Below are positions 14,819 through 19,991 of a stretch of DNA of 38,099 nucleotides, one piece after another. Position 1 is the first letter of the stretch, and each line of letters starts with the position of its first letter. A model generated the notes under the pieces. The model was not told the DNA's origin. It made no database searches and saw only the letters and a list, made by a program, of their open reading frames with translations. The DNA comes from an uncultured Gammaproteobacteria bacterium (GTDB lineage Bacteria; Patescibacteriota; Microgenomatia; PFEM01; JAPLYW01), in assembly GCA_964546445.1 (NCBI GenBank), contig CAZJJY010000002.1:1-38099 (forward strand). Direction: 5' to 3'. Both the position numbers and the translations under genes were made by a program.

Positions 14819-15094
14819 ATGGCTGAATTAAATAAATCATACAAATGTAATATTTGTGGTAATGTAGCAAAAATTGTCGAAGCTGGTATTGGTGAATTAG
14901 TTTGTTGTGGTCAACCTATGGCTGTTGTTGAAGAACAAGCTGAAGCTGCACCAGAAGCAAAAACTGAAAGTTCTCCAATTACTGAAACACCTGTATCTGA
15001 GGCTCCACCAGCAGAAAGTACTTCTGCTCCAGCTTCAGAAACACCAATGGCTGAACCTACAGAAACAAAACCTGAAGAAAAACCAAGTTTTTAA
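14819..15094 (+). CDS. Desulforedoxin-domain protein with a Pro/Glu/Thr/Ala-rich tail
   Basis: YKCNICGNVAKIVEAGIGELVCCGQPM matches the Dx / Dfx-N-terminal CxxC...CC site. SD AAAGGAGG lies upstream. Residues from about 40 to 91 are low complexity. Confidence 0.65.
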   Translation: MAELNKSYKCNICGNVAKIVEAGIGELVCCGQPMAVVEEQAEAAPEAKTESSPITETPVSEAPPAESTSAPASETPMAEPTETKPEEKPSF

Positions 15095-16575: not shown

Positions 16576-17601
16576 TTAATTGATTAAATTATCCAAAATT
16601 TTCCATCTTCTTTTCTTTTCTGGAGGAAGAACATCATCTTTCAGTTTAAAAGCTGCTGTTCCTTTTCTTGGAGAATAACGATTTACAAAGGCTCTATCAA
16701 AACCAACTTTTCTACATAACTTAACGGTATTTTCAAATTGTTCTTTAGTTTCTCCTGGAAAACCAACGATAATATCAGTCCCTATCTTAATATCAGGAAT
16801 CTCTTTTCTAATCTTTTTAACTAAATTAAGATAATCTTTTATTTTATAAGAACGATTCATTTTCTTTAATATCTCATCATCACCCGATTGCACAGGTAAA
16901 TGTAAATAACGATCAATCTTAGGTAACTTCATAACCTCTATAATCTCATCAGATAAATCCCAAGGATTAGAAGTTAAGAAAGAAATCTTTTCAACTCCTT
17001 TAACCCCATGAACTTTTTTTAATAAATTTGCAAAGGACTTCCCTGCCTTATCATCATAATAAGAATTAACATTCTGTCCTAATAAAACAACCTCTTTACA
17101 GCCATCCTCAACCAATCTCTCTATTTCACAAAGAATTTCATCTAAAGGAAAACTTTTTTCTTTTCCCCTTCCATAAGGGACAACGCAATAAGAACAAAAA
17201 TTATTACAACCTTTCATTATTGGAATTAAAACAGAAGTTTTATTTTTTCTTTTAGGAACAGTTGAATCAACCAATTCTCTAATCAATTTAAATTCATCAA
17301 CGTTAGGAAGTTTTTTCTTTAATTCAGAAATAGAGTAACGACGCCTATCTTCTCTAGCTGAGCCAACCATACAACCAGTCAAAATAATGTGAGGAGATTT
17401 CTTTAACTTATTTAAATTATTAACTAATCCAAAAACACGATTCTCTGCTGATTCTCTTACAGAGCAACTATTAATAACCACCAAATCAGCATCTTCTGGT
17501 TTTAAAACCAATTTATAACCTTTCTTTTCCAAAACACCAGAAATCTTTTCAGAATCTGCCTCGTTCATCTGGCAACCAAAGGTTTTAACAAAGTATTTCA
17601 T
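16576..17601 (-). CDS. MiaB-family radical-SAM methylthiotransferase, apparently lacking the TRAM domain
   Basis: MTTase N-domain [18 protein letters not shown]...NSCSVRE...TGC. Radical-SAM motif CNNFCSYCVVPYGRG. It ends at 341 aa, where a TRAM domain normally begins. Confidence 0.8.
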   Translation of the reverse strand: MKYFVKTFGCQMNEADSEKISGVLEKKGYKLVLKPEDADLVVINSCSVRESAENRVFGLVNNLNKLKKSPHIILTGCMVGSAREDRRRYSISELKKKLPNVDEFKLIRELVDSTVPKRKNKTSVLIPIMKGCNNFCSYCVVPYGRGKEKSFPLDEILCEIERLVEDGCKEVVLLGQNVNSYYDDKAGKSFANLLKKVHGVKGVEKISFLTSNPWDLSDEIIEVMKLPKIDRYLHLPVQSGDDEILKKMNRSYKIKDYLNLVKKIRKEIPDIKIGTDIIVGFPGETKEQFENTVKLCRKVGFDRAFVNRYSPRKGTAAFKLKDDVLPPEKKRRWKILDNLIN

Positions 17602-17644
17602 AGACTATATTTTAACTTATTTTTGAGGCTAAAGTAAGGAGAAA
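17526..17644. repeat. Direct repeat, left copy (5' end of the MiaB-like gene plus 43 bp upstream)
   Basis: Aligns gap-free with 19197-19315 at an offset of 1671 bp. I count 110/119 identities. Confidence 0.85.
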
Positions 17645-17743
17645 ATGAAGATTGATAAATACATAAATAAATATATTGATTATATGAAGTATGAGCGTGG
17701 TTTTGCTGAAAATACCATTATTGGGAGAAAAAAGCTCTTTTAG
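17645..17743 (+). pseudogene. Tyrosine recombinase (XerC/D / phage integrase) N-terminal fragment
   Basis: A 32-codon ORF, MKIDKYINKYIDYMKYERGFAENTIIGRKKLF-stop, preceded by AAGGAG. The YL..ERG.s.NTi pattern is typical of the integrase SAM-like N-domain. No catalytic domain follows. Confidence 0.5.
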
Positions 17744-17812
17744 ATTAAACAGGTTTTTTTTTAAATTTTTATCTCCCTATTTACAACTCCAATAAAAAAT
17801 TATAATATAAGA

Positions 17813-17843
17813 TTGTGGTTATATATACCAAATATGGTATAAT
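17813..17843 (+). promoter_or_regulatory. Cassette promoter with an operator-like palindrome
   Basis: TTGTGG (17813-17818) and extended -10 TGgTATAAT (17835-17843). The perfect inverted repeat TATACCA-aata-TGGTATA (17824-17841) overlaps the -10. The first ATG of the cassette is only 13 nt downstream. Confidence 0.5.
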
Positions 17844-17855
17844 TGTTGAGGATGA

Positions 17856-18206
17856 ATGCAAGATGAAATTGATTATTACAAATCTCTTAATGGCAGAAAG
17901 TATGCCAAAGAGTTTTTGGACGGAATTTTTTCGTCGCATAAGCAATTATGGATTCAAATAAATACTATTTTAAAACATATCAGGAACAGGCAAAACAGGA
18001 AACGTCCGTTTACCGCCTCACTGGGTAACGGTTTATTTGAAGAAAGGGCAAGGTCTAATACATTACAAGCTAGAATAAATTTTTGCTATGATAAAGACGG
18101 AATAAAATTACTGAATGGTTATCTTAAAAATGATAGAAGAAGTATGAATAGTGGAATAGCTTTTGGAAGAAAATTATTAAAGGAAAAAAATAAAAAGGAA
18201 AAATAA
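17856..18206 (+). CDS. Gp49-like / HigB-like toxin (RelE/ParE superfamily)
   Basis: EIDYYKSLNGRKYAKEFLDGI...LGNGLFEERARSNTLQARINFCYDKDGIKLLNGYLKN...GIAFGRKLLKE follows the phage Gp49-like addiction-toxin pattern (I.YY...V..FL..L...L..GLyELR...aRI.F....i.LLhGf.K...I..A). Confidence 0.7.
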   Translation: MQDEIDYYKSLNGRKYAKEFLDGIFSSHKQLWIQINTILKHIRNRQNRKRPFTASLGNGLFEERARSNTLQARINFCYDKDGIKLLNGYLKNDRRSMNSGIAFGRKLLKEKNKKEK

Positions 18207-18208
18207 AA

Positions 18209-18631
18209 ATGAAAAATAGTTATTATAAAGATATCTCTAAAAAGGTTTCAAGCGATTCAAGTTTAAAAAAAGAACTAAAAGATGCAGAAAAAGCTGTTGC
18301 CATTGCTCAACAATTATATAATTTAAGAAAAAATAAAGGCTTAACTCAAACACAATTCGCTAAACTTATTGGTGTTAGTCAACCAAATATAGCTAGATTA
18401 GAAAGTGGAGATTATAAAAGTTATTCTCTGAGGACTCTTAACAAAGCTGCTGATGCTCTAGATTCTAATGTTGAAGTTAGAATTACACCTAAAGAAACCA
18501 AAACATATAAACAAGTTTGGGATATTCCTTCAGTTAAGATTTCTTTAGAAAAAACGGTTAAAAAAACGGATACTAAAGACGTGTCTAAAAATTTTAAAAT
18601 ATCTGGTTTTTTAGAAAATTACGCAATATGA
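18209..18631 (+). CDS. XRE-family HTH antitoxin-like protein with a C-terminal extension of about 50 aa
   Basis: The HTH is LRKNKGLTQTQFAKLIGVSQPNIARLESG. The gene starts 2 nt after the toxin stop. Residues from about 92 to 140 lie beyond the HTH domain. Confidence 0.75.
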   Translation: MKNSYYKDISKKVSSDSSLKKELKDAEKAVAIAQQLYNLRKNKGLTQTQFAKLIGVSQPNIARLESGDYKSYSLRTLNKAADALDSNVEVRITPKETKTYKQVWDIPSVKISLEKTVKKTDTKDVSKNFKISGFLENYAI

Positions 18632-19110
18632 AAATAAAACACATATGGTCAGTTTTATGTAAGGAAAGTGTAATCAATCAAGATGATAACACTATCTCTT
18701 TACATGGAATATTAGAGAAACTCAGCTCAACACTAAAACCAATAAATAATCCAAAAACAACTGATTTAAAAAAACAAAAAAAGATTGTATTTCCTATCAG
18801 TTATGAAATAGTAAGTTTTTGGACTAAGGAATTAAGTAAAGAAATAAATCTTAATATTAGTATCAAATTGATTGACCCCAAAGGAAATATATTAGAAAAG
18901 ATAATAAATGAAGCAAAATTTCCAAAAGAAAGTAAAAGATTAAGAACTAGATTAAAAGTGCAAGGTCTTCCAGTATCAGAAAATGGTATGTATTTATTTA
19001 AAGTATCTGTTAAATCAGAGAAAGAAAAAAAATATACTATTGTGTCAGAAATCCCATTAGAAGTGCAGTATAAAATTATTCCTGATAATAAAAATACTCC
19101 GCCTAATTAA
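18628..19110 (+). CDS. Uncharacterised 160-aa protein, third cassette gene
   Basis: ATGA overlap with the antitoxin stop. No signal peptide, TM segment or catalytic motif is visible. The alternating hydrophobic pattern suggests a beta-rich fold. It loosely recalls small DUF-type proteins (possibly DUF6941), unverified. Confidence 0.6.
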   Translation: MKIKHIWSVLCKESVINQDDNTISLHGILEKLSSTLKPINNPKTTDLKKQKKIVFPISYEIVSFWTKELSKEINLNISIKLIDPKGNILEKIINEAKFPKESKRLRTRLKVQGLPVSENGMYLFKVSVKSEKEKKYTIVSEIPLEVQYKIIPDNKNTPPN

Positions 19111-19196
19111 TTAGATATAAGAATAAGTAAATAACTTATAACTAAAAACGGGAATTAAAAGTAGTTTAAAAAATCAAAGAATGGGGTACAATCTGG

Positions 19197-19272
19197 TTTC
19201 CAAAACACCAGAAATCTTTTCAGAATCTGCCTCATTCATCTGACAGCCAAAAGTCTTAACAAAGTATTTCAT
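19197..19272 (-). pseudogene. Orphan 5' fragment of a MiaB-like gene
   Basis: Reads [25 protein letters not shown], identical in protein to codons 1-25 of the intact gene. It then diverges and stops within 8 codons. Confidence 0.75.
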
Positions 19273-19315
19273 AACCTATATTTTAACCTATTTTTGAGGC
19301 TAAAGTAAGAAGAAA
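19197..19315. repeat. Direct repeat, right copy
   Basis: Matches 17526-17644, with 9 substitutions and no gaps. Confidence 0.85.
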
Positions 19316-19350
19316 CTCTAAGCTTTAATAAAAATAATATAATTAAGATC

Positions 19351-19991
19351 ATGGATGAAAAAAATAACTCTTCCGGACTTAAATTTCACCAACTATCTGA
19401 AGAAGCGAGAGAAAAAGACAATCATCTCGAGGCTTTAAAATTTATTGAAGAGGCCATCTTTAATTACCAGAAAGAAAAAGATTATTCTAGTCTTGTTAAA
19501 GCTATGCTATTTTAGCTCAAAAAGATTCCGAAGCAAGTCTTTCTATTGCTGAAAAATATAATCTTACAGAAATAATTGGTTCTTCTTATTTTAATCTTGG
19601 TAAGACAGCCATGCTTTTCAAGAGCTATAAAGAGGCTATAAAACAATATGAATTAGCCATTGAAAAATATCATGGAACTAATACAGAAAAGGGAGATTAT
19701 TATTATCATTTAGGCGAAGCCTTCTTTAAAGACAATCAAAAAGAAAAAGGTAAAGAAACAATACTCAAGGGATTAAAACAAATAGAAGATTATGCTGACG
19801 AAGTTGATCCATTCCTTGTACATGTATGGTCTTCAGGCTGTCATATATATTTAGCAAAACTATTAAAAGAAGATAACCCTCAAGAAGCAAAAGAAAGTTT
19901 TGATAAAGCAAAAGCAATTATTGACTCCGACGATAAACTTATTATTCGTAAAAGACAAATAAAAGAATTGGCTAAAGATTTTGAACAATAA
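19351..19991 (+). pseudogene. TPR-like helical-repeat protein, interrupted by a frameshift near 19500-19512
   Basis: Frame A (ATG 19351) stops at TAG 19513-19515. Frame B is open from 19500 and runs to 19991. The joined product of about 210 aa has repeated A-x-x-Y/F...G...A TPR-like helices. The pattern is consistent with a 1-nt deletion. Confidence 0.6.

What the first reader, a model, noticed from the sequence alone, without database searches (positions are those of the whole stretch)
18628..19110. Orphan 160-aa protein with no recognisable motif
The translation begins MKIKHIWSVLCKESVINQDDNTISLHGILEKL and ends YLFKVSVKSEKEKKYTIVSEIPLEVQYKIIP. It has no TM segment, signal peptide, nucleotide-binding or nuclease motif that I can see. 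The alternating hydrophobic/polar pattern suggests an all-beta sandwich. The N-terminal W..LC....I.....ISL.GI pattern and the C-terminal G.Y.F.V.V pattern vaguely recall small uncharacterised DUF proteins (possibly DUF6941), but I cannot verify this. Its coupling to an antitoxin stop codon implies stoichiometric co-production.
Basis: inference. Interest (0 to 1): 0.6.

Follow-up and report, generated by a model that had tools for sequence, protein, structure and literature searches.

The report
SecB-free toxin-antitoxin-chaperone-like third gene
The 160-residue protein is not an orphan: it belongs to a large uncharacterised family (DUF6941) and is the fixed third gene of toxin-antitoxin cassettes whose antitoxins carry a long floppy tail, so it probably does the job that the SecB chaperone does in known three-part systems, with an unrelated fold.

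Summary
The ORF at 18628-19110 (+) is real. It overlaps the stop codon of the upstream XRE antitoxin gene by ATGA, and AlphaFold2 folds it as an all-beta sandwich (pLDDT 88.5). "Orphan" is wrong: 1540 cluster representatives match it. It is a divergent branch of Pfam DUF6941 (hhalign 96.3%).

In 103 of 107 related loci the gene abuts a same-strand upstream gene; the other four lack upstream DNA. That neighbour is an antitoxin of at least four unrelated families: XRE/HigA, DUF4926, HicB and DUF2283. Each is preceded by its matching toxin.

All these antitoxins carry a 31-102-residue C-terminal extension. For XRE the median is 58 residues, against 3 in 30 Gp49-XRE pairs of the same phylum that lack the third gene, with no overlap. 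The window's tail is modelled as disordered. Aromatic residues are enriched near the C-terminus.

Canonical DUF6941 genes in the same phylum often sit between dnaK and dnaJ. No SecB was found in this genome.

Best reading (0.55): a SecB-independent analogue of toxin-antitoxin-chaperone (TAC) systems. Binding is inferred, not shown. No paper on DUF6941 was found. Earlier notes of this scan reached the same reading on other genomes.

The parts
17526..17644 (.). Left copy of a 119-nt direct repeat: the first ~25 codons plus ~43 nt of upstream region of the intact MiaB-like radical-SAM gene on the minus strand.
   Evidence: the repeat finder family D1, 92% identity to 19197-19315 at a spacing of 1671 nt. 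Pairwise alignment. The differences inside the coding part are synonymous (read from the alignment).
17856..18206 (+). Toxin candidate, 116 aa, Gp49/HigB-like (RelE/ParE-superfamily mRNA interferase).
   Evidence: Pfam Gp49 PF05973 at E 1.1e-3, 19.4 bits, below the cut-off of 23.9. It clusters by BLAST with 44 other 'second-upstream' genes of related loci. Of 26 such genes scanned, 15 hit Gp49, the best at 5e-17.
18209..18631 (+). Antitoxin, 140 aa. XRE/HigA-type HTH domain (residues ~1-93, nt 18209-18487) plus a 46-48-residue C-terminal extension (residues ~95-140, nt 18491-18628) that ends ...SKNFKISGFLENYAI.
   Evidence: HTH_3 at E 4e-12, residues 36-87. AlphaFold2 gives pLDDT 72-97 for residues 1-93 and below 50 for 95-110 and 115-140. 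The tail length is typical of DUF6941-linked XREs and is absent from unlinked ones.
18628..19110 (+). The finding: 160-aa DUF6941-type Ig-like beta-sandwich protein, third gene of the cassette and proposed chaperone-like partner of the antitoxin tail.
19197..19315 (.). Right copy of the 119-nt direct repeat, a remnant 5' end of a MiaB-like gene. Together with the left copy it brackets a 1671-nt insert that holds the three genes.
   Evidence: Public contigs break at both copies, and one 1694-nt contig spans 17533-19226 without a difference. GC of the insert is 26-28% against 31-40% in the flanks.

Best explanation
The gene encodes the third component of a three-gene type II toxin-antitoxin cassette: a Gp49/HigB-like RNase toxin, an XRE/HigA-like antitoxin with a disordered C-terminal extension, and a DUF6941 beta-sandwich protein. 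I propose that it works like the SecB-type chaperone of toxin-antitoxin-chaperone (TAC) systems.

Proposed mechanism:
- The beta-sandwich protein binds the aromatic-tipped, disordered tail of the antitoxin.
- This keeps the antitoxin soluble, or shields it from proteolysis. Lon is present in this genome; ClpP was not found.
- The antitoxin can then neutralise the toxin.
- Loss, titration or competition for the third protein would free the toxin.

Shown here: the gene order and overlaps, the constant partnership across unrelated TA families, the tail that is specific to linked antitoxins, and the family's link with dnaK-dnaJ operons. Inferred: physical binding to the tail, the stabilising direction of the effect, and any phage-sensing role.
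For: 1. Gene order. Of 107 related loci with a target ORF, 103 have a same-strand gene ending within -47 to +32 nt of the DUF6941 start, mostly with a 4- or 1-nt overlap. The other four lack enough upstream DNA.

2. Partner families. Among 95 non-redundant loci the adjacent gene falls into unrelated antitoxin families: XRE-HTH 49, DUF4926 18, HicB 10, DUF2283 9, plus 3 of an unnamed family and 2 singletons. The gene before it co-varies: Gp49/HigB 45, DUF6883 14, HicA 9, and an unnamed 93-aa protein 7.

3. Tails are specific to linked antitoxins.
- Linked XRE tails beyond the HTH are 31-102 aa, median 58, n=48.
- In 30 Gp49-XRE pairs of the same phylum without the third gene they are 2-25 aa, median 3. 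There is no overlap (Mann-Whitney p=6e-14).
- The four other TA-type DUF6941 genes in that unbiased genome sample all follow XREs with tails of 46-60 aa.
- DUF2283: 37-55 aa linked, against a median of 19 unlinked.
- DUF4926: 32-67 aa linked, against 15 and 15 in the two unlinked examples.
- HicB: 55-67 aa linked; no control.

4. Nature of the tail. The window antitoxin tail is modelled with pLDDT below 50. Aromatic residues make up 23-40% at positions 4-6 from the C-terminus, against 8.7% background. The motif [FYW]x[FYWLIV] occurs in the last 12 residues in 33 of 73 tails, against 18.2 +/- 3.7 in shuffles, with a maximum of 30 in 2000 shuffles.

5. Phylogeny. The 90 TA-linked proteins form one clade (SH-aLRT 99). 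Inside it the antitoxin family changes at least 21 times. The window's protein nests (98) among five DUF4926-linked ones. So the third gene is exchanged between TA families.

6. Family context. In a sample of the same phylum, 7 of 28 canonical DUF6941 genes lie directly downstream of dnaK, and at least four of these are followed by dnaJ. Two more lie next to ClpP-like SDH proteases.

7. No SecB was found in this 95%-complete genome.

8. Published SecB-TACs show the same logic: T-A-C order, HigBA/HicAB/MqsRA cassettes, a ~46-aa aromatic-dependent C-terminal ChAD, and a transferable ChAD/chaperone module (PMC5105189; bioRxiv 10.1101/2024.02.24.581848).
Against: - No direct evidence of binding or of any chaperone activity exists.
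- The fold is a generic Ig-like sandwich. The best PDB Z is about 10, shared by GH2 Ig domains, RhoGDI, Wzt-CBD and many others. It says nothing specific about function.
- The tails of different antitoxin families are not detectably homologous: a tail HMM scores cross-family hits no better than decoys.
- The correlation between tail similarity and DUF6941 distance is weak and is matched by a control on the N-terminal domains.
- Only 45% of non-redundant tails carry the simple aromatic motif.
- The tail-length controls come from one phylum. They are the 30 best-scoring loci rather than a random draw.
- Most TA-linked loci were collected with peptide patterns taken from this subfamily.
- Expression of the gene is unknown.
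Confidence: 0.55

Rival explanations
1. The DUF6941 protein is a negative regulator or trigger sensor rather than a stabiliser. It recognises the antitoxin's C-terminal tail as a degron-like tag and hands it to Lon or FtsH (a protease adaptor). Alternatively, it binds a phage or stress signal and thereby releases the toxin.
For: The tails end in hydrophobic or aromatic C-termini (...YQTL...AAL...NYAI), which resemble C-terminal degrons (established knowledge of ssrA and Lon tags). Canonical relatives sit next to ClpP-like SDH proteases in 2 of 28 loci. In SecB-TACs the chaperone is also the phage sensor.
Against: A cassette that permanently encodes an antitoxin destabiliser, translationally coupled to the antitoxin, would be constitutively toxic unless balanced. 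The dnaK-dnaJ context of relatives fits holding or folding better than degradation. No adaptor-like fold match was found.
Confidence: 0.15
2. The DUF6941 protein is an integral structural subunit of the antitoxin complex, a detachable 'body'. It gives oligomerisation, co-repression at the operator or direct toxin contacts, without any chaperone-like action on folding or stability.
For: It is always adjacent to and translationally coupled with the antitoxin. Earlier scan notes on MazF-type cassettes with small acidic antitoxins proposed this reading (e1-5287891; not tested here). There is a conserved exposed R104/R106/R108/K110 strand (the exposed position is inferred from the alternation).
Against: Two-gene Gp49-XRE pairs without a tail and without DUF6941 are common in the same phylum (30 of 30 inspected). 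The antitoxin core therefore suffices; the extra protein goes with the extra tail, not with the core.
Confidence: 0.12
3. The DUF6941 protein is a second toxin or effector that is held in check by the antitoxin's C-terminal extension (one antitoxin, two toxins).
For: The extra tail and the extra gene appear together. Invariant polar residues (H5, E30, E60, R106, R108, Y122) could form an active or binding site. The ESM Atlas holds clusters in which some members carry both HNH_2 and DUF6941.
Against: There is no catalytic motif and no match to any toxin family in Pfam, NCBIfam or PADLOC. It is an Ig-like sandwich. Sister-clade members sit in dnaK-dnaJ housekeeping operons without any antitoxin, which is hard to reconcile with toxicity.
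Confidence: 0.08
4. The gene is functionally unrelated to the TA pair and merely hitch-hikes in the same small mobile insert.
For: The cassette is a 1.67-kb insert between direct repeats, so its genes travel together anyway.
Against: Adjacency holds in 103 of 103 informative loci across at least five TA families and several phyla. There are stop-start overlaps, and the tail is specific to linked antitoxins.
Confidence: 0.03

Closest known systems
SecB-type toxin-antitoxin-chaperone (TAC) systems: M. tuberculosis HigB1-HigA1-SecB(TA) (Rv1955-1957), E. coli HigBAC, MqsRAC and CmdTAC (PMC5105189, PMC6377645, bioRxiv 10.1101/2024.02.24.581848)
   Same: - A tricistronic toxin-antitoxin-third-gene order.
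- The third gene is combined with several unrelated TA families, including HigBA-like and HicAB.
- The antitoxin carries a ~45-60-residue disordered C-terminal extension with aromatic residues, which two-gene relatives lack.
- The extension-plus-third-gene unit looks transferable between TA families.
   Different: - The third protein is an all-beta Ig-like sandwich of Pfam DUF6941, with no sequence match to SecB.
- Further TA families take part (DUF6883-DUF4926 and DUF2283-type).
- The hosts are mainly Patescibacteria/CPR, which lack SecB.
- No experiment exists.
- The likely protease differs: Lon is present and ClpP was not found in this genome.
Pfam DUF6941 (PF22091), canonical members
   Same: They are homologous over the whole length (hhalign 96.3%, E 1.7e-9). 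The predicted fold is the same (TM 0.79 to an Atlas DUF6941 cluster). The N-terminal motif is of the same kind (hydrophobic-x-LC-D/E...S...KLS.IG.F).
   Different: The window's clade has its own KHIWSVLC motif, an insertion at residues ~37-55 and an R-x-R-x-R-x-K strand. It falls below the Pfam threshold. It sits in TA cassettes, whereas canonical members of the same phylum sit between dnaK and dnaJ or in other contexts.
HigBA-family type II toxin-antitoxin pairs (Gp49/HigB toxin with XRE/HigA antitoxin)
   Same: The first two genes are of this type, in toxin-first order, as in 30 two-gene pairs of the same phylum.
   Different: The antitoxin is about 45 residues longer at its C-terminus, and a third, translationally coupled gene follows.
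Beta-sandwich solubilising factors and chaperones (RhoGDI, PDE6D, UNC119)
   Same: These are the top Foldseek matches. They are small Ig-like sandwiches that shield a hydrophobic C-terminal appendage of a client (RhoGDI Z 10.1, rmsd 2.8 over 114 residues).
   Different: TM is only 0.38-0.51 at 9-14% identity, and many unrelated Ig domains score equally. This is a resemblance in shape only and is no evidence of common function.

Membership tests
Pfam DUF6941 (PF22091) | Score at or above the curated gathering threshold (27 bits) of the family HMM | tested here: not met
   The window protein scores 22.9 bits, E 1.2e-4, and only residues 55-138 align. In the whole-genome scan it scores 20.9 bits.
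Pfam DUF6941 (PF22091) | Homology to the family shown by relatives and by profile-profile comparison | tested here: met
   26 of 30 homologues hit PF22091, the best at 9.5e-8. hhalign of A1 against 15 canonical members gives 96.3% probability, E 1.7e-9, over 125 columns.
Pfam DUF6941 (PF22091) | Same predicted fold as family members | tested here: met
   ESM Atlas clusters that carry PF22091 match at TM 0.79/0.80 over 142 residues, rmsd 2.1, and at 0.78 with the Atlas's own model.
Toxin-antitoxin-chaperone (TAC) systems | Tricistronic operon: a type II toxin-antitoxin pair followed by a third gene | tested here: met
   Window genes at 17856-18206, 18209-18631 and 18628-19110, with a 2-nt gap and a 4-nt overlap. 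The same order holds in 103 of 107 loci.
Toxin-antitoxin-chaperone (TAC) systems | The third gene encodes a homologue of the SecB chaperone | tested here: not met
   No SecB (PF02556) match at E<=1 in Pfam or NCBIfam. The model is all-beta, whereas SecB is alpha/beta with two long helices (the SecB fold is from established knowledge). The absence of SecB from the fold-search lists is not counted as evidence.
Toxin-antitoxin-chaperone (TAC) systems | The antitoxin carries a C-terminal extension (ChAD) that two-gene relatives lack | tested here: met
   Linked XRE tails are 31-102 aa (median 58, n=48), against 2-25 aa (median 3, n=30) unlinked. The trend is the same for DUF2283 and DUF4926.
Toxin-antitoxin-chaperone (TAC) systems | The extension is intrinsically disordered and its recognition depends on aromatic residues | tested here: inconclusive
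   pLDDT is below 50 for residues 95-110 and 115-140. Aromatic residues are enriched at positions 4-6 from the C-terminus. Dependence on them cannot be tested in silico.
Toxin-antitoxin-chaperone (TAC) systems | The third protein binds the extension and prevents aggregation or degradation of the antitoxin; without it the toxin is free | not testable with these tools
   This needs co-expression, pull-down, and solubility and half-life assays.
Toxin-antitoxin-chaperone (TAC) systems | The same third component serves several unrelated TA families | tested here: met
   XRE/Gp49, DUF4926/DUF6883, HicB/HicA, DUF2283 with a 93-aa partner, and an NlpC/P60-like module. At least 21 label changes on the tree.
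HigBA-type type II TA (first two genes) | Toxin of the Gp49/HigB (RelE/ParE) family | tested here: inconclusive
   The window toxin scores 19.4 bits, below the cut-off of 23.9. It clusters by BLAST with 44 partners, and 15 of 26 such genes scanned match Gp49, the best at 5e-17.
HigBA-type type II TA (first two genes) | Antitoxin with an XRE/Cro-C1 HTH domain encoded directly downstream of the toxin | tested here: met
   HTH_3 at 46.4 bits against a cut-off of 23. The gap between the genes is 2 nt.

The most novel reading that the evidence does not exclude
DUF6941 is an unrecognised family of ATP-independent holdase or co-chaperone proteins. General members would work with DnaK and DnaJ in Patescibacteria, which lack SecB. 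One clade would have been recruited, together with a portable disordered aromatic tail, into at least five unrelated toxin-antitoxin families. That would be a convergent re-invention of the SecB/ChAD 'chaperone addiction' principle with a completely different fold, possibly also serving as a phage sensor.
Probability: 0.35. Interest if true: 0.85.

Novelty: new variant of a known kind. Interest (0 to 1): 0.72.

Why it matters
TAC systems are so far defined by a SecB-like chaperone. They have become a model for how a chaperone can serve as the phage sensor of an abortive-infection module.

A second, structurally unrelated third component with the same genomic logic would show three things:
- Chaperone addiction is a general, convergently evolved design rather than a peculiarity of SecB.
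- A family of more than 1500 sequence clusters with no known function would gain a first functional handle.
- There would be a proteostasis factor (dnaK-DUF6941-dnaJ operons) in the minimal genomes of CPR bacteria.

The hypothesis is directly testable with standard co-expression assays in E. coli.

Tried and rejected
- Complex prediction of the full-length XRE antitoxin (A4) with the DUF6941 protein (A1): ipSAE 0.01 and 0.00. No verdict, and no evidence either way.
- Search for fused or longer forms of the protein, with the single sequence and with the profile: none found, which is weak evidence.
- Viral contigs, the phage collection and the plasmid collection: no relative found.
- PADLOC: no match for the DUF6941 protein.
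- PDB by sequence with both profiles: only insignificant Ig-domain hits.
- Fold searches: only generic Ig-like sandwiches at Z about 10.
- Language-model look-alikes outside PF22091: none usable.
- Test for a portable homologous tail module: an HMM of nine XRE tails does not find tails of other antitoxin families better than shuffled decoys.
- Mantel-like test of tail similarity against DUF6941 distance across families: rho -0.136 (0 of 300 permutations as low). A control on the N-terminal domains gave -0.176, so I count it as inconclusive.
- DUF4926 control for tail length: only two unlinked examples in 391 genomes, which is too few.
- Promoter and terminator scan of 17500-19500: not above shuffles.
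- Expression: no RNA holder is listed among the public runs.
- Search for an empty-site variant between the 119-nt repeats in contigs of four salt-lake runs: none seen. Contigs break at the repeats.
- Idea that the protein is a SecB homologue: rejected on sequence and secondary structure.
- Idea that the C-terminal tail is simply the toxin-neutralising region: rejected as the main explanation, because tail-less XRE partners of Gp49 are the rule in two-gene pairs.

Full report
**Observation**

The window holds an ATG-initiated ORF at 18628..19110 (+) of 160 aa with the quoted termini. Its start overlaps the stop of the preceding ORF in ATATGA.

The preceding ORF (18209..18631, 140 aa) has an XRE/Cro-C1 HTH at residues 36-87 (HTH_3, E 4e-12). 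The ORF before that (17856..18206, 116 aa) is weakly Gp49/HigB-like (E 1.1e-3).

The three genes lie between housekeeping genes. On one side are an amidophosphoribosyltransferase-like gene and a MiaB-like radical-SAM gene. On the other are HU, RNase Y, RecX and RecA. The genome is 588 kb and 95% complete, of the Patescibacteria type (organism names of the relatives).

**Not an orphan**

- The word-indexed search found 89 homologues at 40-67% identity, many pre-annotated PF22091.
- The exhaustive HMMER search found 1540 cluster representatives at E<=1e-3 and 537 at E<=1e-10.
- The protein itself is just under the Pfam DUF6941 threshold (22.9 against 27 bits).
- 26 of 30 aligned homologues hit DUF6941.
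- A profile of the subfamily aligns to 15 canonical DUF6941 proteins over the whole length at 96.3% probability, E 1.7e-9.
- The alignment shows 14 invariant positions, including H5, I6, W7, E30, E60, R106, R108 and Y122, and a KHIWSVLC...S.INQDDN motif.

**Structure**

AlphaFold2 with 30 sequences gives pLDDT 88.5 and pTM 0.81, with ten beta strands. One low-confidence loop at residues 41-50 corresponds to an insertion relative to canonical members.

Foldseek and VIA-align find only generic Ig-like sandwiches: GH2 Ig domains, the AlkC Ig domain, Wzt-CBD, RhoGDI, PDE6D and UNC119, at Z about 10 and TM 0.4-0.5. The ESM Atlas returns DUF6941 clusters at TM 0.79, and one cluster in which some members carry HNH_2 as well as DUF6941.

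No solved structure is related by sequence. No paper in the library mentions DUF6941.

**Context is the informative part**

I collected 29 loci from GTDB genomes, 80 from metagenomes and three by exact look-up.

Of 107 loci with a recognisable target ORF, 103 have a same-strand gene ending within -47 to +32 nt of its start, mostly with a 4- or 1-nt overlap. The four exceptions have 35-228 nt of upstream DNA or a truncated target.

After removing exact duplicates (95 loci), the adjacent gene falls into BLAST clusters that Pfam names as follows:

| Adjacent gene (antitoxin) | Loci | Gene before it (toxin) | Loci |
|---|---|---|---|
| XRE-HTH | 49 | Gp49/HigB | 45 |
| DUF4926 | 18 | DUF6883 | 14 |
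| HicB | 10 | HicA | 9 |
| DUF2283 | 9 | unnamed 93-aa protein | 7 |
| unnamed family | 3 | NlpC/P60/CHAP-like (DUF7689) | 3 |
| singletons | 2 | | |

A 2026 preprint classifies DUF6883 as a BECR-fold RNase toxin (BECR-Tox3) with DUF4926 as its conserved downstream partner, and DUF4258 as colicin-like BECR (10.64898/2026.08.28.747851). So the third gene follows complete toxin-antitoxin pairs of at least four or five unrelated families.

**The antitoxins share one thing: a C-terminal extension**

By Pfam coordinates the domains end 35-67 residues before the stop in DUF2283-, DUF4926- and HicB-type partners.

- With one HTH-only model, the 48 linked XRE antitoxins have tails of 31-102 aa (median 58).
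- The XRE partners of the 30 best-scoring Gp49 genes, from a 401-genome sample of the same phylum, have tails of 2-25 aa (median 3). None of these is followed by the third gene. The two distributions do not overlap.
- In that same unbiased sample the subfamily profile finds four further genomes. In all four the gene lies 440-540 nt downstream of a Gp49 hit, and the XRE in between has a tail of 46-60 aa.
- DUF2283: linked 37-55 aa (median 39, n=9), against unlinked median 19 (range 4-33 with one at 69, n=30).
- DUF4926: linked 32-67 aa (median 59, n=18), against 15 and 15 in the only two unlinked examples found.
- HicB: linked 55-67 aa; no control.

AlphaFold2 models residues 1-93 of the window antitoxin confidently and residues 95-140 at pLDDT 33-43.

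The tails are rich in S, T, E, K and N. Aromatic residues make up 23-40% at positions 4-6 from the C-terminus, against 8.7% further upstream. The motif [FYW]x[FYWLIV] occurs in the last 12 residues in 33 of 73 non-redundant tails, against 18.2 +/- 3.7 in shuffles.

The tails of different antitoxin families are not detectably homologous.

**Phylogeny**

A quick IQ-TREE run used 108 proteins. It places the 90 TA-linked proteins in one clade (SH-aLRT 99), apart from the canonical members.

Inside that clade the antitoxin-family label needs at least 21 changes. The window's protein sits (98) among five proteins linked to DUF4926 antitoxins. The third gene has therefore been recombined repeatedly with different TA cassettes.

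**Family-level context**

PF22091 is found in 29 of 401 sampled genomes of the phylum and in none of 14 control genomes. One of those 29, G154, is unpublished; it enters this tally and the neighbour listing only.

Of the 28 canonical loci:
- 7 lie directly downstream of dnaK, in four GTDB families, and at least four of these are followed by dnaJ;
- 2 lie next to ClpP-like SDH proteases;
- 1 lies next to a Fic gene.

The window's genome has DnaK and Lon. No SecB or ClpP was detected.

**Interpretation**

These features reproduce the published logic of SecB-type TAC systems:
- a classical TA pair followed by a third gene;
- the third gene serves HigBA, HicAB and MqsRA cassettes;
- chaperone dependence is conferred by a ~46-residue disordered C-terminal ChAD that depends on aromatic residues;
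- the ChAD/chaperone unit is transferable (PMC5105189; 10.1101/2024.02.24.581848).

Here the third protein is not SecB-like in sequence or in secondary structure. I therefore read the finding as the third component of a SecB-independent TAC-like system.

Physical binding, the direction of the effect on antitoxin stability, and any sensor role are inferred. The one complex prediction gave no verdict.

**Mobility**

The three genes lie in a 1671-nt insert bracketed by 119-nt direct repeats (17526-17644 and 19197-19315, 92% identical). The repeats consist of the 5' end and upstream region of the MiaB-like gene. The differences in the coding part are synonymous, as if the right copy came from a related allele together with the cassette.

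GC is 26-28% in the insert against 31-40% in the flanks. Contigs of four salt-lake metagenome runs hold the insert unchanged, and no empty site was seen.

In a Daviesbacteria genome the same three-gene unit is inserted between rpsG and fusA.

**Novelty**

No paper was found on DUF6941. None was found on a non-SecB TAC chaperone either.

After I had formed this reading (stated), a look-up showed that earlier notes of this scan reached the same SecB-free TAC-like reading on other genomes. These include MazF- and RelE-type cassettes that I did not examine. They are unchecked AI notes, not independent evidence.

- the same-phylum controls for tail length;
- the tree with repeated cassette exchange;
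- the dnaK-dnaJ context of the sister clade;
- the repeat-bounded insert.

Noticed in passing
L039, L044, L048, L054, L056, L058, L062 (loci): Canonical DUF6941 genes of the same phylum lie directly downstream of dnaK. In at least four loci they are followed by dnaJ, giving a dnaK-DUF6941-dnaJ operon in four GTDB families. In L062 a DUF3467 gene sits between dnaK and DUF6941.
   Followed up: partly
window 17526-17644 and 19197-19315: 119-nt direct repeats (92% identical) bracket the three-gene cassette. They duplicate the 5' end of the MiaB-like gene and differ only synonymously in the coding part. This suggests acquisition by recombination from a related genome.
   Followed up: partly
L002:4233-5465 (also L003, L004, L008): In a Candidatus Daviesbacteria genome the same Gp49-XRE-DUF6941 triple is inserted between rpsG and fusA of the str operon.
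   Followed up: no
L023:2622-4166: A variant cassette: an HTH-Panacea (SocA-like) antitoxin of 227 aa, then an unassigned 130-aa protein, then DUF6941. The order looks like antitoxin-toxin-third gene.
   Followed up: no
L115:1001-2617, L124:1223-2888, L130:1398-2947: DUF6941 follows a pair made of an NlpC/P60/CHAP-like protein (DUF7689, ~170 aa) and an unassigned 190-240-aa protein. This may be a fifth toxin-immunity type served by the same third gene.
   Followed up: no
L051, L055, L060, L041: Other canonical DUF6941 genes lie next to ClpP-like SDH-type serine proteases (in L055 preceded by an XRE gene), a Fic/DOC protein and a NUDIX hydrolase.
   Followed up: no
L120:1459-1689, L121:1037-1267: Two metagenome loci carry a DUF6941 ORF of only 76 aa (59% identical over residues 1-70), downstream of a 159-aa XRE. 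It is probably a truncated or decayed copy.
   Followed up: no
window 19351-19515 and 19611-19991: Two TPR-like ORFs (54 and 126 aa) lie in different frames just downstream of the insert. They may be one gene broken by a frameshift, or two small genes.
   Followed up: no
window 14819-15094: A 91-aa ORF with a CxxC...CC zinc-ribbon-like N-terminus and a P/E/T/A-rich low-complexity tail.
   Followed up: no
own genome (G000): No ClpP (PF00574) and no SecB (PF02556) were detected in the 95%-complete genome. Lon and DnaK are present.
   Followed up: partly
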